This document shows positions 1,389 through 6,372 of a stretch of DNA of 64,000 nucleotides, one piece after another. The notes beneath the pieces are model-generated. The model did not search any database and had not been told where the DNA came from. It saw only the letters and a list, made by a program, of their open reading frames with translations. The position numbers and the translations under genes were made by a program. Each line of letters begins with the position of its first letter. The stretch's first letter is position 1. Location of the stretch: sequence record PZ534534.1; one strand, written 5' to 3'. This stretch comes from a phage.

Positions 1389-1416
1389 CCACCTATCACG
1401 TGATAATGGAGGAAAC

Positions 1417-1755
1417 ATGGCGGATACAACTAAAAAGCGTCGCCGTAGAGGCAGACCTCTGAAAGAGGAGTCCAACGCCATTCAGCTAGAGAAGAACATC
1501 CTTGATATGAAGGAATCTTTTATAGCGATGGTTCCAGAAGCTCACAAAGTTTTAAGAGAGCTGATGTTGGACCCGAAAACCAAACAAAATATTCGTCAAA
1601 GCATTGCAGAGTATGTTCTTGATAAGGCAGACCGAATGCAGGAAGAATATGATGAGATGTTCGGTGAAGAGGAAGAGGTGGTAGTAGAAGAGGCTGAAAA
1701 ACCAGCACCTTTTATGCCATTTACCACAGAAATACAGCCTGTTGGCAATAGTTAA
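1417..1755 (+). CDS. hypothetical protein with basic N-terminus and acidic C-terminus
   Basis: ATG at 1417 preceded by GGAGGA; N-terminus KKRRRRGRP; the ORF-track start at 1297 lacks an RBS. Confidence 0.5.
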   Translation: MADTTKKRRRRGRPLKEESNAIQLEKNILDMKESFIAMVPEAHKVLRELMLDPKTKQNIRQSIAEYVLDKADRMQEEYDEMFGEEEEVVVEEAEKPAPFMPFTTEIQPVGNS

Positions 1756-1764
1756 AATATTTTC

Positions 1765-1793
1765 TTGACAAACTTTGCTTAACAGTGTAATAT
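1765..1793 (+). promoter_or_regulatory. sigma70-like promoter upstream of tRNA cluster (TTGACA-17-TAATAT)
   Basis: Consensus hexamers with 17-nt spacer about 60 nt before the first tRNA. Confidence 0.6.
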
Positions 1794-1851
1794 TGTAAAC
1801 ATGGTCTCCCACCTTTTCTGGCGGCTAAGGTGTAAAAGAAAGCCACCCAGT

Positions 1852-1926
1852 GCCCTGTTAGCTTAGTGGATAAAGCAGCGGCCTTCTAAGCCGTTGACAC
1901 TGGTTCGAGTCCAGTACGGGGTGCCA
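1852..1926 (+). tRNA. tRNA-Arg (anticodon TCT)
   Basis: Cloverleaf folded by hand: acceptor GCCCTGT/ACGGGGT, anticodon loop CTTCTAA, T-loop TTCGAGT, CCA encoded. Confidence 0.8.
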
Positions 1927-1930
1927 AATT

Positions 1931-2017
1931 GGGGAGTTATCCCGTAGAGGTAGCGGTGTAGACTGTAAATCTATTGTCATTGCGACTCGGGTGGTTCGAC
2001 TCCACCACTCCCCACCA
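1931..2017 (+). tRNA. tRNA-Tyr (anticodon GTA), long variable arm
   Basis: Acceptor GGGGAGT/ACTCCCC, anticodon loop CTGTAAA, variable arm and T-arm GGTGG-TTCGACT-CCACC; layout matches bacterial tRNA-Tyr. Confidence 0.8.
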
Positions 2018-2131
2018 AATTTACATTTTTAAATGCATAAATCATACAGATAATGGCATTGATATTTATCGTCGTTTATACTAGTCACTAACTGCTCGAA
2101 AATCAGTGTCATTATCAGTATTGTTTATAAA

Positions 2132-2222
2132 TGAGGGTAGGGAGCAATGGTGCTCAAGCGGTCTTGAAAACCGTCCCGTTGAGGATGACTCGATGATGGT
2201 TCGATTCCATTACCCTCAGCCA
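2132..2222 (+). tRNA. tRNA-Ser (anticodon TGA), long variable arm
   Basis: Acceptor TGAGGGT/ACCCTCA, anticodon loop CTTGAAA, long variable arm, T-loop TTCGATT, discriminator G plus CCA. Confidence 0.7.
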
Positions 2223-2320
2223 TATTGTTGACCTTGTAATTAAGCGAAAGCCGGAAGCAGAACCGGATTATCAAATGTTACAGTCGTCATCGCCGACTAG
2301 CAACATGGTCAACATACTGA

Positions 2321-2417
2321 GCTAGGTAAGCCCTTTGGCAAGGGCGAGGATTTTTAATCCTGAAAATAGACGAGGTAGTCGTTGAATACATAGGTGGTTC
2401 GATTCCATCACCTAGCA
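2321..2417 (+). tRNA. atypical tRNA-like gene, anticodon loop TTTTTAA (UUU, Lys-like) with about 30-nt variable region
   Basis: Perfect 7-bp acceptor GCTAGGT/ACCTAGC, D-arm GCCC-TTTGGCAA-GGGC, T-arm GGTGG-TTCGATT-CCATC; anticodon arm imperfect; CCA not encoded. Confidence 0.45.
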
Positions 2418-2424
2418 CCTTTTT

Positions 2425-2500
2425 GCTGATGTAGCACAATTGGTAGTGCAATTGATTTGTAATCAATAGGTTGCAGGTTCGAGTCCTGCTATCAGCACCA
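2425..2500 (+). tRNA. tRNA-Thr (anticodon TGT)
   Basis: Acceptor GCTGATG/TATCAGC, anticodon stem ATTGA/TCAAT, loop TTTGTAA, T-arm GCAGG-TTCGAGT-CCTGC, CCA encoded. Confidence 0.8.
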
Positions 2501-2501
2501 T

Positions 2502-2576
2502 GGCCCTGTAGCTGGAAGGTTCAAGCAAGCGACTCATAATCGCCAGACGGTGGTTCAATTCCACCCAGGGCCACCA
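2502..2576 (+). tRNA. tRNA with CAT anticodon (Met, fMet or Ile-lysidine)
   Basis: Acceptor GGCCCTG/CAGGGCC, anticodon loop CTCATAA, T-arm GGTGG-TTCAATT-CCACC, CCA encoded. Confidence 0.8.
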
Positions 2577-2587
2577 AATAATAAATA

Positions 2588-2664
2588 CTCCGCGTAGCTC
2601 AGCTTGGTAGAGCGCCTGATTTGGGATCAGGAGGTCGAGTGTTCGAATCACTCCGTGGAGACCA
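2588..2664 (+). tRNA. tRNA-Pro (anticodon TGG)
   Basis: Acceptor CTCCGCG/CGTGGAG, D-arm TAGCTCAGCTTGGTAGAGC, anticodon stem CCTGA/TCAGG, loop TTTGGGA, T-loop TTCGAAT, CCA encoded. Confidence 0.85.
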
Positions 2665-2710
2665 CTTTCAGTTATACTTTAAACATATACAAACAAAAGG
2701 AACCTTTAAA

Positions 2711-2980
2711 ATGTATACACTTAAAATTGTAGAGCGTGTAAATCCAACCCATACTGTAGATTTTCGTGACGATTTCAATCCTCTGGCTGTAAATCTTCGA
2801 GAGTCATATCATGAACTCAGCTGCGATGCAGTGGTGGTCTTTTTTGAAGACAACTCTGAAGGGGCAGTAGCTTGTGTTGTTGATAGTGAGCAGAAGTTTT
2901 ATATTTACAGAGATGTAGATGCATACTTGATGAATGAAAATGCAGTTACTGTTAGAATCATCCACCGAGTGCCTCGATAA
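2711..2980 (+). CDS. hypothetical protein
   Basis: ORF track 2621..2980 overlaps tRNA-Pro; internal ATG at 2711 with AAAGGA RBS taken as start. Confidence 0.45.
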   Translation: MYTLKIVERVNPTHTVDFRDDFNPLAVNLRESYHELSCDAVVVFFEDNSEGAVACVVDSEQKFYIYRDVDAYLMNENAVTVRIIHRVPR

Positions 2981-3032
2981 GTATTAGTCTCCTTTTAGTT
3001 AGTTTCGATCTATTTAGGTTACTCAATTTTAA

Positions 3033-3067
3033 CCCGCCCCGTTAGCTGCATAGCTGCGGGGTTTTTT
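3033..3067 (+). terminator. rho-independent terminator
   Basis: GC-rich hairpin (CCCGCCCC...GCGGGG) followed by TTTTTT. Confidence 0.55.
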
Positions 3068-3085
3068 CGTTTCTGGAGCCTTAAA

Positions 3086-3484
3086 ATGATTTCAGTTTTA
3101 ACATGGCTGAGTAGGTATAAAGGGATCATAAAAGGTTTAGTTTTTGCAGCTGCGATAGGTACAGCTTATCTTGGGGCCGTGTATTGGTTTAACTCCAAGC
3201 TTAATGATGCCTACCAGGAGGGTGTGTCAGCAACAGAGTTAAAGTGGGAACGGATCCTTGATCAGCAACAAAAGCAGGCCGACAAGATTAAAATGGGCCA
3301 CGCAGAGGAGGTTAAAAACCTTGAAAAATCTCTTTCTGATCTGCAGGATAAATTAAATATAGCTGAGAGGGCAGGTAAAGAAAAGCAGATTATTTACCTC
3401 CAATCACCTGAGGGTAAGAAGTCAACACTCCCTGATCAGCTTATAGATATTTATAATGAGAGTATTAATCAGGAGGGTCGATGA
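3086..3484 (+). CDS. inner-membrane spanin (i-spanin, Rz-like)
   Basis: N-terminal TM helix (GLVFAAAIGTAYLGAVYWF) followed by charged coiled-coil region; overlaps the lipoprotein gene by 4 nt. Confidence 0.65.
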   Translation: MISVLTWLSRYKGIIKGLVFAAAIGTAYLGAVYWFNSKLNDAYQEGVSATELKWERILDQQQKQADKIKMGHAEEVKNLEKSLSDLQDKLNIAERAGKEKQIIYLQSPEGKKSTLPDQLIDIYNESINQEGR

Positions 3485-3768: not shown

Positions 3769-4193
3769 TGTCTAAGATTTACGGACCGTGTTCTGAAAAG
3801 CAGAAGATGATCCTTGAAAACGATGCAGATATTTTGGTAATCGGCGGTGCCGCAGGGTCTGGCAAGTCGTTCCTCTTGCAATTGATGCCACTTAAAATTA
3901 TTGATGACCCCCACAGCTCTGTGGTTATGTTCCGAAGAACAACCCCACAGTTGGAAGGTGAGGGTGGACTATGGCCTAAAGCAGTAGCTATTTATAGTGA
4001 TCTGCCTGAAAACATTAAGCCAAAGTTCAGAGAGAAGGATCATAAGTTCATTTTTCCACGGTTTGATCCGAACACCGGCAAGTGGGATAGAAGCAAAAAG
4101 GGAGCTGTTGTAAAATACTGCCACATGGAGTATGTACAAGATAAGCTTAACCATCAAGGGCTTGAGTATACCATGGTTTGCTTCGATGAGGGT
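3768..4193 (+). CDS. terL: terminase large subunit, exon 1 (ATPase Walker A GGAAGSGKS, Walker B MVCFDE)
   Basis: Walker A/B motifs typical of terminase ATPase domain; ORF ends with in-frame stop immediately after the predicted 5' splice site (GAGGGT|TAATT). Confidence 0.8.
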
Positions 4194-5076
4194 TAATTTG
4201 TAGCTCTCGTAAAACCTCCCTAATTGCGGGGAAATCTTTATTATTGACACCACCAACCTGTCATGGTAACATGATAGAGGCTTCGAAGAGAGATCGAAGG
4301 TATGGTAACAGTGTGTTAATTTAGATAATCCGCAGCGAAGCATCCGAGAGGATGAACGTTCAACGACTAGTCGAAAGACGTAGAATCAAGCGATTCGAAA
4401 CGGGAGGGTGAATGTGTAATACTAAAAAATGTATGGATTGCCAAAGAGTTCTACCTATTGATGATTTCTTTTTATCATCTAAGAGCAAGGATGGATACTC
4501 AGGTACATGCAAGGAATGCTATATGTACTACAGGAAGGGTGGATCTCGTAAAAACAAAAATATGGTTAAGAGAGATGACGCAGCATTGTTTATTCAAGAC
4601 TTGCTGAAGAAAGGTGAACTTTTTGAATGCAAATCTTGTCATGAAAGTATGCTCGCTGATAGTTTTTACACAAAACGTGACTATGGTAAAGTATATCTGG
4701 TTACGAACAGGTGTAAGATGTGTGAAAAGTTTTATCAGATTGAGAAGAAATTTCACATAACAAAAGATGAATACTATCGTCTACTCTCAGATCAAGATCA
4801 TAAGTGTGCCATTTGTAGAATATCCCTTGATGAGTATAGGACGCAAGGGTATAGAGATTTCTTTTGTGTTGATCATGACCATAAAACTGGTGCTGTAAGA
4901 GGGTTGCTTTGTGATAAATGCAACAGAGCTTTAGGTTTCTTCCAAGAGGATGAGGAAACTATTCTTAGAGCGGCAGAGTATTTACACATTCATAAGATAT
5001 AGTCTGGTCTGCATGGAGACATGCAGCTGCCTGAAAATGGCGGGGCAAGACTAGCGACCTTGCCCGAACATAAACG
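4194..5076 (+). mobile_element. group I intron 1 (td-like) in terminase gene, carrying an HNH endonuclease ORF
   Basis: Begins TAATTT after exon-terminal U; 3' core CTGCATGGAGACATGCAGCTG...GGCGGGGCAAGACTAGCGACCTTGCCCGAACATAAACG closely parallels the T4 td intron core as recalled from memory; exon reading frames are restored across it. Confidence 0.7.
4412..5002 (+). CDS. intron-encoded homing endonuclease, endonuclease VII-like HNH zinc-finger type
   Basis: Motif CAIC...VDHDHKTGAVRGLLCDKCNRALG matches the recombination endonuclease VII / HNH pattern; several CxxC pairs; own RBS GGGAGGG. Confidence 0.8.
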   Translation: MCNTKKCMDCQRVLPIDDFFLSSKSKDGYSGTCKECYMYYRKGGSRKNKNMVKRDDAALFIQDLLKKGELFECKSCHESMLADSFYTKRDYGKVYLVTNRCKMCEKFYQIEKKFHITKDEYYRLLSDQDHKCAICRISLDEYRTQGYRDFFCVDHDHKTGAVRGLLCDKCNRALGFFQEDEETILRAAEYLHIHKI

Positions 5077-5393
5077 ACACAATTCGAATGGGAGCAGATA
5101 GACTATCTGATGTCTCGTCTGCGATCTCAGTCAAAGTATCCATCAAGAATGGTTATCAGCTGTAACCCCGATTCAGAACACATGCTTGCCAAACTGGTTA
5201 GATGGTGGTTGGACGATGAAGGGTATCCAGATCCGGAGAAATGCGGTAAGAAAAGATATTTTATCCGACGCGACGGTGAATTTATCTGGGGAGACTCTAA
5301 AGAAGAGTTGATAGAGAAATACACCACGGTTAACGGACTGGGTGTTGAGATCAAGCCAAGACCGTTGTCATTCTCGTTTATAGGCGCAACCAT
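5077..5393 (+). CDS. terL: terminase large subunit, exon 2
   Basis: In-frame continuation (TQFEWEQIDYLMSRL...SFSFIGATI) with no RBS at the internal ATG (5110); boundaries inferred from frame conservation and td-like intron ends. Confidence 0.65.
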
Positions 5394-6372
5394 TAAATGA
5401 TAGTGGCTTCGTGCAGAAATGCACGTCGAATAACTTCGTTAATTGCTGGGAAATCCGATTGCTAAACGGACAATCAGCAGCTATAATTACCCTTCCGAAC
5501 CTGTAGTAGGGAGATGTTTGAAATGAAAAATTTAGGCTTTTTAGGCTACAATCATTATTGTGCTACATACGATGGCAGAATTTACAGTCTGTATTCTAAT
5601 AAATTCCTCCATCCTAATGTGCAGAAAAAGACTGGCTATGCTATGGTAACTTTGTGCGAGGACGGTAAAAAGTTCCAAGTGCTCGTTCACAGAGTGATTG
5701 CTATGACTTTTGTTGATAATGACAATCCCAGCGTGAAAACTCAAGTAAACCACCTAGATGGTAATAAGTTGAATAACGCCGCATGGAACCTTGAGTGGAC
5801 AACGCCTGAGGAAAACACACATCACGCTCATGAAATGGGACTTAAAAAGGACTATGTCAATAAATACAGGTCCCTGGATGATGCCACTGCTCTTGAAATA
5901 TGTAGGCTGTTAGAACAAGGCGCAAGGGTAAAAGACATTTGTGAAATGTTCGGTGTCAATCAACCACTTGTAAGTGGTATAAAGAATGGCTCAGTATACC
6001 CAGATATTTCTAAAGAGTTTAACTTTAGAAAAGTGCCAACCTCTAATCGGATAAGTGAGCACAAGATAATAGGTATCTGCGAGGATCTTAGTGATAAGGT
6101 CTTGTGTGTCAATAAAATAGCTAAGAAGTGGGGAGTAAGTTTTAGTGTTGTTAAAGGAATAAAAGACCGTAAGACTTACACCTATATTTCAAACAATTAC
6201 GATTGGTAATGTAGTTCAACGACTATCCCGAGAGGGAGTAGGGCGCAAGCTTATGGCGCTCGAAAAGCGAAGCACCCTGAAATGGGTGGTGATATAGTCT
6301 ACTCTGCATGGTAACATGCAGCAGCACGTAAAGGTGCGGAAGGTGGTGTTGCGACCACCTTTGAATATAAGG
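5394..6372 (+). mobile_element. group I intron 2 (td-like) in terminase gene, carrying an HNH endonuclease ORF
   Basis: 3' core ACGACTATCCC...GGGAGTAGGG...GATATAGTCTACTCTGCATGGTAACATGCAGCAG plus P9-like hairpin AAGGTGGTgttgcgACCACCTT; the exon-3 frame opens only 2 nt before the predicted 3' splice site. Confidence 0.7.
5514..6209 (+). CDS. intron-encoded HNH homing endonuclease with C-terminal HTH
   Basis: Motifs VHRVIAMTFV...VNHLDGNKLNN...NLEWTTPEEN are the canonical HNH endonuclease signature seen in phage homing endonucleases. Confidence 0.85.
   Translation: MFEMKNLGFLGYNHYCATYDGRIYSLYSNKFLHPNVQKKTGYAMVTLCEDGKKFQVLVHRVIAMTFVDNDNPSVKTQVNHLDGNKLNNAAWNLEWTTPEENTHHAHEMGLKKDYVNKYRSLDDATALEICRLLEQGARVKDICEMFGVNQPLVSGIKNGSVYPDISKEFNFRKVPTSNRISEHKIIGICEDLSDKVLCVNKIAKKWGVSFSVVKGIKDRKTYTYISNNYDW

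What the first reader, a model, noticed from the sequence alone, without database searches (positions are those of the whole stretch)
1765..2664. Promoter-driven cluster of seven tRNA genes including one atypical tRNA-like gene
Seven tRNA-like cloverleaves (Arg-TCT, Tyr-GTA, Ser-TGA, an atypical one, Thr-TGT, CAT-anticodon, Pro-TGG) are packed into 0.8 kb behind a consensus promoter. The element at 2321..2417 has a perfect acceptor stem and T-arm but an imperfect anticodon arm with a UUU (Lys-like) loop and a variable region of about 30 nt, which is inconsistent with a normal type I tRNA-Lys. It could be a non-canonical tRNA, a suppressor or a decaying pseudogene.
Basis: seen in the sequence. 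Interest (0 to 1): 0.5.

Follow-up and report, generated by a model that had tools for sequence, protein, structure and literature searches.

The report
Conserved non-decoding tRNA-like RNA in phage
Among six ordinary tRNA genes of an rV5-like E. coli phage sits a seventh, five-armed tRNA look-alike that is kept intact across a whole phage subfamily but has an anticodon arm too short and too changeable to read codons, so it is probably a tRNA mimic with an unknown job rather than a tRNA or a dead gene.

Summary
ARAGORN finds seven genes at 1852-2664 behind a TTGACA-17-TAATAT site at 1765-1793. The odd one, 2321-2419, is called "tRNA-???" and passes the Rfam tRNA threshold (35.5 bits against 29).

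The window is a Vequintavirus (100% identical to phage APECc02). I collected about 33 distinct homologues from Vequintavirus, Avunavirus, Seunavirus, Mydovirus, Henunavirus and unclassified metagenomic lineages.

- **Fold is maintained.** All 620 cells of 20 cloverleaf pairs are paired, 11 pairs carry compensatory changes, and the tertiary 19:56 elbow pair switches G-C to U-A. This is not a decaying pseudogene.
- **The "anticodon" arm is never canonical.** It is 14-16 nt instead of 17, and its loop differs between genera: UUUUUAA here, UUUAUAA, C-N-N-CCA, N-AUCAA-R elsewhere.
- **The linkers are invariant.** G-AAAA and AUACAUA flank a free-varying extra hairpin.
- **It is not a decoder.** The UUU "Lys" loop is lineage-specific, and the GenBank labels (Lys, TERM, OTHER, ???, or none) are annotation artefacts.

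Best reading: a processed, L-shaped tRNA mimic. Its function is untested. I favour a decoy for tRNA-targeting immunity, or a charged carrier that does not decode. No paper or separate Rfam family describing it was found. It is dispensable in phage V18.

The parts
1765..1793 (+). sigma-70-type promoter-like site TTGACA-17 nt-TAATAT upstream of the cluster
   Evidence: 10 of 12 matches; best site in 1400-3200, but the number of such sites in the region is not above the shuffled expectation
1852..1926 (+). tRNA-Arg(UCU), canonical, CCA encoded
   Evidence: 67.8 bits
1931..2017 (+). tRNA-Tyr(GUA), class II (long variable arm), CCA encoded
   Evidence: 29.9 bits, just above the gathering score; RefSeq labels it tRNA-Pseudo-GTA
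2132..2222 (+). tRNA-Ser(UGA), class II, U1-A72, CCA encoded
   Evidence: not reached by the Rfam tRNA model at gathering; tRNA-Sec model 40.2 bits, below 47
2321..2419 (+). the atypical tRNA-like RNA (whole gene: acceptor to discriminator A2417 plus CC)
   Evidence: homologues
2321..2327 (+). acceptor stem 5' strand, pairs with 2410-2416
   Evidence: 7 of 7 pairs; 5 of the 7 pairs show compensatory changes across 31 homologues
2330..2345 (+). D arm: GCCC-TTTGGCAA-GGGC, preceded by A8 A9. Position 8 is A and position 14 is U, the reverse of the usual U8-A14
   Evidence: 3 of 4 pairs covary. D-loop G19 covaries with T-loop C56 (G-C in 20 sequences, U-A in 11)
2347..2361 (+). truncated 'anticodon' hairpin AGGAT-TTTTA-ATCCT (15 nt against the canonical 17), flanked by the invariant G2346 and G2362
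   Evidence: The arm is 14-16 nt in every homologue and the loop is not conserved
2362..2368 (+). conserved 5' linker GAAAATA (family consensus G-AAAA-N-N), single-stranded
   Evidence: invariant columns in alignments A1 and A2; unpaired in all folds
2369..2383 (+). extra (variable-region) hairpin GACGA-GGTAG-TCGTT. Its sequence and length vary freely between genera but it is always a hairpin
   Evidence: A-T to G-C compensatory change between this phage and the Avunavirus homologues; C-G to T-A within Seunavirus
2384..2392 (+). conserved 3' linker GAATACATA (ATACATA invariant in the family)
   Evidence: All tRNA-like hits found with a pattern for the D arm alone also carry ATACATAGG
2393..2409 (+). 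T arm GGTGG-TTCGATT-CCATC
2410..2419 (+). acceptor 3' strand ACCTAGC, discriminator A2417, then CC followed by a T run. The final A of CCA is not encoded here; most other genera encode U73-CCA
2425..2500 (+). tRNA-Thr(UGU), canonical
   Evidence: 76.2 bits
2502..2576 (+). tRNA with CAU anticodon (Met, or Ile2 if lysidine-modified; BASEL genomes annotate it as Ile/ATA)
2588..2664 (+). tRNA-Pro(UGG), 82% identical to T4 tRNA-Pro

Best explanation
The region is a tRNA operon of an rV5-like (Vequintavirus) phage. It holds six working tRNA genes and one member of a conserved family of tRNA-like non-coding RNAs found so far only in phages of the subfamily Vequintavirinae and in unclassified metagenomic relatives.

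Shown:
- The RNA has a real tRNA fold: acceptor stem, D arm, T arm and the D-loop/T-loop elbow.
- It carries a shortened anticodon-like hairpin and a fifth hairpin set between two invariant A-rich single-stranded linkers (G-AAAA... and ...AUACAUA).
- The fold is held by selection across genera and within the genus.
- The anticodon-like loop changes in length and sequence between genera.

Inferred:
- It is transcribed with its neighbours and cut out by the normal tRNA machinery (RNase P at G2321, 3' trimming, CCA completion by the host enzyme).
- It folds into an L shape.
- Its anticodon arm is one or two nucleotides too short and its loop is not conserved, so it does not decode on the ribosome.
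- It most likely acts as a tRNA mimic. It offers a genuine acceptor/T-arm/elbow surface, plus a family-specific junction module, to a tRNA-binding partner.

My preferred partner is a host tRNA-targeting immune nuclease, with the RNA acting as decoy or competitor (about 0.35). Second is an aminoacyl-tRNA synthetase that charges it for a use outside decoding (about 0.25). Neither role has been tested. The confidence given (0.7) is for the statement that this is a selected, non-decoding tRNA-like RNA and not a canonical tRNA or a pseudogene; it is not for any particular partner.
For: - **Identity of the window:** 100% identical to Escherichia phage APECc02.
- **Family:** about 33 distinct homologues from Vequintavirus, Avunavirus, Seunavirus, Mydovirus and Henunavirus isolates and from metagenome lineages. 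None was found in 185,579 bacterial and archaeal genomes with the motif that is invariant in every family member.
- **Structure:** 20 cloverleaf and tertiary pairs are 100% paired in 620 cells, against 34-47% when the partners are slid. Eleven pairs carry double changes. The covariation score is 0.449 against 0.174 in shuffles (0 of 500 reach it). The 19:56 pair is G-C in 20 sequences and U-A in 11.
- **Extra hairpin:** always present, with compensatory changes.
- **Selection within the genus:** 6.1% variable sites in the element against 20-25% in the adjacent spacers, and all six variable sites fall in structurally neutral positions.
- **Anticodon arm:** 14-16 nt in every member, with loops UUUUUAA, UUUAUAA, C[ACU]NCCA, NAUCAAR or GUGAUA. 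By contrast, ARAGORN calls a tRNA-Thr with a tgt anticodon at the expected position in the window and in all seven comparison loci.
- **Acceptor end:** G1-C72 in 29 of 31 and C2-G71 in 31 of 31. U73 plus an encoded CCA is found in every lineage except Vequintavirus and Avunavirus.
- **Distinct from ordinary tRNAs:** my covariance model gives 85-118 bits to members and 35 bits or less to ordinary tRNAs, class II ones included.
- **Not recognised by Rfam:** the Seunavirus, Mydovirus and Avunavirus members checked get no Rfam hit at E <= 0.01.
- **Plausibility of a decoy role:** tRNA-cleaving defences (PARIS AriB, Septu) and rescue by phage tRNAs, possibly through competition, are documented (PMC12409363, PMC13096335).
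Against: - No expression, processing, charging or phenotype data exist for this RNA. I found none in the literature searched.
- The decoy and carrier roles are inference only.
- In this phage the loop UU-UUU-AA together with A73 matches the two main LysRS identity elements (my recollection of the identity rules). A decoding or chargeable Lys role specific to this lineage therefore cannot be excluded.
- The element is dispensable. Phage V18 carries a deletion that fuses the 5' half of tRNA-Tyr to the last 47 nt of the element.
- The collection of homologues relied partly on patterns containing ATACATAGG, so more divergent members without that motif would have been missed.
- The 3' CCA is incomplete in the Vequintavirus and Avunavirus copies.
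Confidence: 0.7

Rival explanations
1. It is a working but structurally unusual tRNA-Lys(UUU). LysRS charges it through U34-U35-U36 and A73, and it reads AAA/AAG. Its odd body (4-bp anticodon stem, 31-nt variable region) would make it resistant to host nucleases that attack tRNA-Lys, such as PrrC and PARIS AriB.
For: The 7-nt reading of the loop, U-U-UUU-A-A, follows the Y32-U33-NNN-R37 pattern and is close to the E. coli tRNA-Lys loop CUUUUAA (E. coli loop from my own knowledge). The discriminator is A only in the UUU-bearing lineage. The rV5-like cluster has no other tRNA-Lys. BASEL and other genomes annotate the element as tRNA-Lys. AriB cleaves tRNA-Lys(UUU) in the anticodon stem, and a variant T5 tRNA-Lys escapes it (PMC12409363).
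Against: The arm is 15 nt, not 17. The anticodon would sit one base-pair layer too close to the elbow, and the hairpin prefers 5-6 bp with a 3-5-nt loop. Sequences 93% identical (Avunavirus) have UAU with U73 or C73, and other genera have 6-nt loops. The loop is therefore not behaving as a conserved anticodon. L101 carries a normal tRNA-Lys(ttt) as well as its copy of the element. The final A of CCA is not encoded.
Confidence: 0.15
2. It is a decaying tRNA pseudogene: a former class II or Lys tRNA that picked up an insertion and is drifting.
For: Many GenBank records label it tRNA-OTHER or leave it unannotated. CCA is incomplete in this lineage. It is lost by deletion in phage V18.
Against: All stem cells are paired across 31 distinct sequences, with 11 pairs carrying compensatory changes and a covarying tertiary pair. 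Invariant linkers persist across at least five genera. Variability is three to four times lower than in the flanking spacers.
Confidence: 0.03
3. It is a suppressor or recoding tRNA that reads a stop codon or a four-base codon.
For: ARAGORN proposes a four-base anticodon 'atcc'. Some records label the element tRNA-TERM, and the Henunavirus homologue is annotated 'tRNA-TERM suppressor' because its 7-nt loop holds UCA. Rfam tRNA-Sec gives that homologue 37.6 bits.
Against: The ARAGORN fold uses an all-A-U stem that is absent from the homologues and puts A at position 33 (my reading). The window's loop holds no stop anticodon. The UCA-type loops have A33 on 4-bp stems. The tRNA-Sec score is below the gathering score of 47, and the 8/5 acceptor/T arrangement and 6-bp D stem of tRNA-Sec are absent.
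Confidence: 0.03
4. It is only a cis-acting processing or termination signal: a tRNA-shaped RNase P or RNase E entry site, or a weak terminator, with no role as a free RNA.
For: The T arm and acceptor strand followed by a T run scores as terminator-like. The A/U-rich single-stranded linkers resemble RNase E sites (inference).
Against: A processing handle would not need an invariant junction module, a covarying elbow pair, or the conserved U73-CCA end seen in most genera. Neighbouring tRNAs already supply RNase P sites every 80-100 nt. The T run after the gene is absent in other genera.
Confidence: 0.07

Closest known systems
Class II (long-variable-arm) bacterial tRNAs: Ser, Leu, Tyr and tRNA-Sec
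   Same: 7-bp acceptor stem, D arm, T arm with a TTCGATT loop, an elbow pair, and an extra stem-loop between the anticodon and T arms. It sits in a tRNA operon and ends in N73-CC(A).
   Different: The anticodon arm is 14-16 nt instead of 17, and its loop is not conserved. The extra hairpin is held by 7-9-nt invariant single-stranded linkers instead of stacking directly on the core. Positions 8 and 14 are A and U, the reverse of the usual U8-A14. There is no 8/5 arrangement or 6-bp D stem as in tRNA-Sec. Rfam tRNA and tRNA-Sec models miss most members.
Phage T4 small stable RNAs, species 1 and 2 (rnaC, rnaD), in the T4 tRNA cluster
   Same: Small RNAs encoded among phage tRNA genes that are not tRNAs (annotation). 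From my own knowledge they are tRNA-like at their ends, are presumably cut out by the tRNA processing machinery, and have no known function.
   Different: No sequence similarity: 56% or less in global alignment, which is background. T4 RNAs are 119-139 nt with a different architecture. The covariance model R1 returned only tRNA genes in the T4 locus, at 25.5 bits or less.
Non-proteinogenic or regulatory tRNA-like molecules of bacteria (Staphylococcus cell-wall tRNA-Gly; Bacillus cereus tRNA-Other, PMC3399842)
   Same: tRNA-shaped, genomically encoded RNAs that are kept out of normal decoding but retain acceptor-end features.
   Different: Those have a canonical cloverleaf size. This family has a truncated anticodon arm and a fifth arm. 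Charging of the phage RNA is untested.
Phage tRNAs used against tRNA-targeting immunity (T5 tRNA-Lys/Thr/Asn against PARIS AriB; T6 tRNA-Tyr against Septu; PMC12409363, PMC13096335)
   Same: Encoded in a lytic coliphage tRNA cluster. The local loop resembles tRNA-Lys(UUU), which is an AriB and PrrC target. Competition by phage tRNAs has been proposed.
   Different: Those are decoding-competent tRNAs with a few protective substitutions. This RNA is not built to decode, and no defence phenotype has been tested.
tmRNA tRNA-like domain and eukaryotic or viral tRNA mimics (mascRNA, MHV68 vtRNAs, plant viral TLS)
   Same: An acceptor/T-arm mimic that is processed by tRNA enzymes without acting as an adaptor.
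   Different: No mRNA-like module, and no G3-U70 (pair 3:70 is U-A, C-G or A-U). ARAGORN reports no tmRNA. Rfam matches to mascRNA-menRNA in this region overlap the CAT tRNA, not the element, and are far below gathering.

Membership tests
Canonical elongator tRNA (Rfam RF00005 sense) | 7-bp acceptor stem closed by a discriminator and CCA | tested here: met
   7 of 7 pairs in the window and 100% paired in 31 homologues. CCA is fully encoded in most genera; only CC is encoded here.
Canonical elongator tRNA (Rfam RF00005 sense) | T arm with a T-Psi-C loop, and a D loop whose G19 pairs with C56 | tested here: met
   GGTGG-TTCGATT-CCATC. The 19:56 pair is kept as G-C or U-A.
Canonical elongator tRNA (Rfam RF00005 sense) | 5-bp anticodon stem with a 7-nt loop (U33, purine 37); 17 nt in all | tested here: not met
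   15 nt here (5 bp + 5 nt, or 4 bp + 7 nt). 14-16 nt in every homologue, several with A at position 33 or a 6-nt loop.
Canonical elongator tRNA (Rfam RF00005 sense) | the anticodon is conserved among orthologues | tested here: not met
   UUU, UAU, NCC or UCA, or no triplet frame at all, in different genera. ARAGORN calls tRNA-Thr(tgt) in the window and in all seven comparison loci.
Canonical elongator tRNA (Rfam RF00005 sense) | variable region of 4-5 nt, or a 10-24-nt arm joined directly to the core | tested here: not met
   31 nt here and 38-41 nt elsewhere, with 7-9-nt unpaired conserved linkers on both sides of the hairpin.
Canonical elongator tRNA (Rfam RF00005 sense) | score at or above the Rfam gathering threshold | tested here: inconclusive
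   The window copy passes (35.5 against 29). The PVP-SE1, Mydo and Av-05 copies give no hit at E <= 0.01, and the Henunavirus copy hits only tRNA-Sec below threshold.
tRNA-Lys(UUU) | UUU anticodon and A73 (LysRS identity set, from my own knowledge of the literature), in a decoding-competent body | tested here: inconclusive
   UUU in the 7-nt reading of the loop and A73 are both present, but the body is not canonical. Charging cannot be tested with these tools.
tRNA-Sec / stop suppressor tRNA | UCA, CUA or UUA anticodon; for Sec, an 8/5 acceptor/T arrangement and a 6-bp D stem | tested here: not met
   The loop is UUUUUAA. The arrangement is 7/5 with a 4-bp D stem. The Rfam tRNA-Sec model does not reach the element in the window.
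tmRNA | tRNA-like domain with G3-U70 plus a tag-peptide reading frame | tested here: not met
   ARAGORN reports no tmRNA. Pair 3:70 is U-A here. At 97 nt there is no room for a reading frame.
T4 rnaC / rnaD stable RNAs | sequence or structural homology to T4 species 1 or species 2 RNA | tested here: not met
   Global identity of 56% or less. Model R1 returned only tRNA genes in the T4 locus L185.
tRNA pseudogene | loss of pairing and neutral drift relative to the flanks | tested here: not met
   100% pairing with 11 compensated pairs. 6.1% variable sites against 20-25% in the spacers.
New Vequintavirinae tRNA-like RNA family (defined here) | cloverleaf core + A8/U14 + short anticodon-like hairpin between G26 and G44 + AAAA linker + hairpin + AUACAUA linker + T arm | tested here: met
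   The window copy scores 105.4 bits with model R1. Members score 85-118 bits and ordinary tRNAs 35 bits or less. Alignments A1 and A2.
Anti-defence decoy RNA / charged non-decoding carrier | binding to or inhibition of a tRNA-targeting nuclease, or aminoacylation in vivo | not testable with these tools
   Inference only, from the anatomy and from published context.

The most novel reading that the evidence does not exclude
The element is the founding member of an undescribed family of phage tRNA mimics: a five-way junction with a conserved A-rich module. These RNAs are matured and perhaps aminoacylated like tRNAs but are built not to decode. They would serve either as RNA decoys or inhibitors of host tRNA-cleaving immune nucleases, or as dedicated aminoacyl carriers. 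The lineage-specific 'anticodon' loops, together with the discriminator (UUU + A73 here; NCC + U73 + G1-C72/C2-G71 in Seunavirus and Mydovirus), would then act as recognition elements for a synthetase or a nuclease rather than as anticodons.
Probability: 0.35. Interest if true: 0.8.

Novelty: new variant of a known kind. Interest (0 to 1): 0.58.

Why it matters
Phage tRNA genes are now seen as weapons against tRNA-cleaving bacterial immunity. A tRNA-shaped RNA that selection keeps folded but unable to decode would extend that picture from replacement tRNAs to RNA mimics, and would give a defined 100-nt object to test.

There is also a practical point. Nearly 200 deposited genomes annotate this gene inconsistently as tRNA-Lys, tRNA-TERM/suppressor, tRNA-OTHER or tRNA-???, or leave it out. 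That distorts tRNA counts, codon-usage arguments and claims of suppressors for therapeutic coliphages and for Klebsiella, Salmonella and Erwinia phages. The covariance model built here separates the family cleanly from true tRNAs.

Tried and rejected
- **ARAGORN's four-base anticodon 'atcc'.** Rejected. It rests on an ATTTT/AAAAT stem that does not exist in the homologues and puts A at position 33.
- **Homology to T4 rnaC/rnaD.** None.
- **Origin from a particular phage tRNA paralogue.** Inconclusive. With the insert removed, the core is 63-71% identical to many different tRNAs (Cys, Arg, Gly, Thr), which is generic.
- **Host origin.** No match to the motif that is invariant in every family member in 185,579 bacterial and archaeal genomes.
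- **More distant relatives.** The relaxed pattern CATAGGNGGTTNGATTCC found only class II tRNA-Tyr-like genes. The D-arm-only pattern found only chance hits apart from members that also carry ATACATAGG.
- **Kissing interaction between the anticodon-like loop and the extra hairpin loop.** UCCA/UGGA in Seunavirus and GCCA/UGGC in phage 4MG look compensatory. However, the Mydovirus group varies its loop with no partner change, and rV5 has no complement. Left as unexplained (my reading).
- **Type III antitoxin (pseudo-ToxI) mimicry.** This is known from the related phage phiTE (my own knowledge). The element is single-copy, not a tandem repeat (one R1 hit in the window). Not pursued.
- **Literature.** The rV5 genome paper lists six tRNAs and does not mention this gene. 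No paper on Vequintavirinae tRNA-like RNAs was found.
- **Proteins.** No protein searches were needed. The minus-strand ORF 2287-2466 (59 aa, TTG start) overlapping the element was disregarded as a mechanical ORF.
Full report
**1. The observation.** ARAGORN finds seven genes on the + strand:
- Arg-tct, 1852-1926
- Tyr-gta, 1931-2017
- Ser-tga, 2132-2222
- an undetermined "tRNA-??? (atcc)", 2321-2419
- Thr-tgt, 2425-2500
- CAT-anticodon tRNA, 2502-2576
- Pro-tgg, 2588-2664

Rfam's tRNA model reaches 2321-2417 at 35.5 bits, above its gathering score of 29. The alignment needs a 26-nt insertion in the variable region and lacks one position at the top of the anticodon stem. A TTGACA-17-TAATAT site lies at 1765-1793. 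The element alone folds into a five-arm cloverleaf at -34.2 kcal/mol, with z = -4.1.

**2. Where the window comes from.** The 1051 bases around the cluster are 100% identical to Escherichia phage APECc02 and 98-99% identical to many rV5-like phages of the genus Vequintavirus. Deposited genomes label the odd gene in at least five ways: nothing, tRNA-OTHER, tRNA-Lys, tRNA-TERM, or tRNA-???(atcc). The rV5 genome paper lists six tRNAs and omits it (PMC3606486).

**3. Relatives.** I used BLAST at low stringency, motif scans of IMG/VR and of metagenomes, and a check of 185,579 prokaryotic genomes. These gave about 33 distinct homologues. They come from:
- Vequintavirus
- Avunavirus (Av-05, 18-1-2)
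- Seunavirus (PVP-SE1, 4MG, EspYZU15, KE22 and others)
- Mydovirus (KB57, Mydo, KPP-1, Ro1 and others)
- Henunavirus (pEp_SNUABM_01, Hena1)
- several unclassified metagenomic lineages (L101, L104, L191, L193, L194, L201)

No cellular genome carries the motif. In the isolate database the family occurs in about 170-190 records. Every record whose taxonomy I fetched is Vequintavirinae. Eighteen records labelled "Campylobacter phage" are near-identical to E. coli phages.

**4. It is a maintained structure.** I used a 31-sequence alignment (A2). On it, all 620 cells of 20 pairs form standard pairs: 7 acceptor pairs, 4 D-stem pairs, 3 unambiguous anticodon-stem pairs, 5 T-stem pairs, and the tertiary 19:56 pair.
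- Eleven pairs show changes on both sides.
- Partners slid by one to three columns pair in only 34-47% of cells.
- No shuffle out of 500 reaches the observed covariation score.
- The elbow pair switches from G19-C56 (D loop TTTGGCAA, T loop TTCGATT) to U19-A56 (TTTGTCAA, TTAGATT) in 11 sequences.

That tertiary switch is strong evidence for a true L-shaped fold. The fifth hairpin is present in every member and shows compensatory changes within groups, such as ACGA/TCGT against ACGG/CCGT, and C-G against T-A in Seunavirus. Among nine rV5-like sequences the element has 6.1% variable sites. The two flanking spacers have 20-25%, Thr has 7.9%, and Tyr and Ser have 13-16%. The six variable sites fall at position 9, in the hairpin loop, at a G-U/G-C position, at a U-A/U-G position, and in the tail. 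A decaying pseudogene is therefore excluded.

**5. It is not built to decode.** The hairpin in the anticodon position is flanked by the invariant G26 and G44. Its length is never the canonical 17 nt:

| Lineage | Stem and loop | Loop sequence |
|---|---|---|
| Vequintavirus (this window) | 15 nt: 5 bp + 5 nt, or 4 bp + 7 nt | UUUUUAA |
| Avunavirus | 15 nt | UUUAUAA |
| Seunavirus, Mydovirus, L104 | 16 nt: 5 bp + 6 nt | C-[A/C/U]-N-C-C-A |
| Henunavirus and related metagenomic lineages | 15 nt: 4 bp + 7 nt | N-A-U-C-A-A-R (A at position 33) |
| L191 | 14 nt | GUGAUA |

In contrast, ARAGORN calls a tRNA-Thr with a tgt anticodon at the expected position in the window and in all seven comparison loci.

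The best-conserved non-core parts are instead the two single-stranded linkers: G-AAAA-N-N after the hairpin, and AUACAUA before the T stem. My 3'-side patterns required that motif, so I ran an independent check. A scan with a D-arm-only pattern returned no tRNA-like hit that lacks ATACATAGG. Positions 8 and 14 are A and U in all members, the reverse of the usual U8-A14.

**6. The acceptor end.** G1-C72 is present in 29 of 31 sequences and C2-G71 in all 31, while pairs 3, 4 and 6 vary. U73 followed by an encoded CCA is present in every lineage except Vequintavirus (A73, CC then U) and Avunavirus (U or C73, then ACA). This suggests that the 3' end matters for processing, CCA addition and possibly charging.

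From my recollection of E. coli identity rules:
- U73 + G1-C72 + C2-G71 + C35-C36 is the GlyRS set. The Seunavirus and Mydovirus loops keep N-C-C-A invariant.
- A73 + UUU is the LysRS set, and rV5 has both.

This coincidence is a lead, not a result. The core with the insert removed is only generically similar (63-71%) to many tRNAs.

**7. What it is not.**
- It has no similarity to the T4 stable RNAs rnaC and rnaD.
- ARAGORN reports no tmRNA.
- Rfam gives no hit at E <= 0.01 to the PVP-SE1, Mydo and Av-05 copies. The Henunavirus copy gets only a sub-threshold tRNA-Sec hit of 37.6 bits, against a gathering score of 47.
- A covariance model built from A2 gives 85-118 bits to members and 35 bits or less to every ordinary tRNA in 185 kb of phage tRNA clusters, class II tRNAs included. 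It finds one copy in the window.

**8. Likely mechanism.**
- *Shown:* a conserved, selected, tRNA-shaped RNA gene in a tRNA operon, with a non-canonical, non-conserved anticodon-like arm and a conserved junction module.
- *Inferred:* co-transcription from the promoter at 1765; 5' cleavage by RNase P at G2321; 3' trimming and completion of CCA; an L-shaped fold with an extra arm; exclusion from decoding because the anticodon arm is short.

As for function, I favour a tRNA mimic that engages a tRNA-binding protein. Published work shows that E. coli defences cleave tRNAs: PARIS AriB cuts tRNA-Lys(UUU), Thr(UGU) and Asn, and Septu cuts tRNA-Tyr. It also shows that phage tRNAs rescue infection, possibly in part by competition (PMC12409363, PMC13096335). 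A decoy role is therefore my first choice at about 0.35. A charged, non-decoding carrier is second at about 0.25. A lineage-specific decoding tRNA-Lys with a nuclease-resistant body cannot be excluded for this phage (about 0.15). The element is not essential: phage V18 carries a deletion that joins the 5' half of tRNA-Tyr to the last 47 nt of the element.

**9. Novelty and verdict.** I found no paper and no separate Rfam family for this RNA. It is a new variant of a known kind (tRNA-like RNAs and non-canonical tRNAs of phages). Its structure is well supported and its function is unknown. Interest is moderate to good: it is a clean, testable candidate for an RNA-level player in the tRNA arms race, and it corrects widespread mis-annotation.

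Noticed in passing
window 2018-2131: The 114-nt spacer between tRNA-Tyr and tRNA-Ser folds into a long, roughly 15-bp hairpin (-25.8 kcal/mol, z = -4.0, 0 of 200 shuffles as good). It is nevertheless among the most variable stretches in rV5-like genomes (20% variable sites). It could be an RNase III-type processing site or another small RNA.
   Followed up: partly
window 2223-2320: The 98-nt spacer before the element is closed by GTTGACC/GGTCAAC and holds two inner hairpins (z = -2.6). It has 24.5% variable sites among rV5-likes.
   Followed up: partly
window 2132-2222 and 1931-2017: tRNA-Ser(UGA) starts with U1-A72 and is missed by the Rfam tRNA model at the gathering score (tRNA-Sec model 40.2 bits, below 47). 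tRNA-Tyr only just passes (29.9 bits) and is labelled tRNA-Pseudo-GTA in RefSeq. Both class II tRNAs of this phage are atypical, and both are more variable (13-16% variable sites) than the tRNA-like element.
   Followed up: partly
L004:1118-1194, L007/L008:1051-1125, L006:1053-1126 (Seunavirus and Mydovirus loci): The tRNA gene immediately 5' of the element also has aberrant anticodon loops in some phages. ARAGORN reports 'tRNA-??? (agat)' and 'tRNA-??? (ga)', meaning 8-nt and 6-nt loops, or a different anticodon (Ile-gat, Arg-gcg). A second gene with unstable anticodon loops therefore sits next to the first.
   Followed up: no
L207:1482-1583; L193:2541-2639; L002:1499-1583: Further unannotated tRNA-like RNAs in related clusters. 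There is a 102-nt five-arm cloverleaf ending in ACCA in Klebsiella phage KP13-26. A 99-nt RNA with two T-arm-like hairpins lies right after the element in metagenome contig L193. An 85-nt one with a 6-bp anticodon stem is in Av-05. ARAGORN calls none of them.
   Followed up: partly
L207:3031-3105 and L194:7862-7934: A tRNA with a CUA anticodon (called tRNA-Pyl; an amber-suppressor type) occurs in Stephanstirmvirinae-like Klebsiella phage clusters.
   Followed up: no
L223:847-943 (Escherichia phage V18): A natural deletion fuses the 5' half of tRNA-Tyr to the last 47 nt of the element and removes tRNA-Ser. tRNA-Pro is also not annotated in that genome. The element is therefore dispensable for growth of that isolate.
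   Followed up: yes
window about 3776-4213, 4429-5019 and 5166-6215: In the APECc02 annotation the terminase large subunit is split into two ORFs with an 'endonuclease VII' gene between them. This may be a homing-endonuclease or intron-type interruption.
   Followed up: no
L184:1971-2321 and 3772-4326 (APECc02, just upstream of the window's start): Genes annotated as a putative RNA ligase, a phosphoesterase, Sir2 and a nucleotide pyrophosphohydrolase lie a few kb upstream of the tRNA cluster. An RNA-repair or anti-defence neighbourhood would fit a conflict over tRNAs.
   Followed up: no
phage database records MG0656xx ('Campylobacter phage C12, A12a, A147 ...'): Eighteen records labelled Campylobacter phages are 99-100% identical to this E. 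coli rV5-like region. They are probably mislabelled or contaminant assemblies.
   Followed up: no
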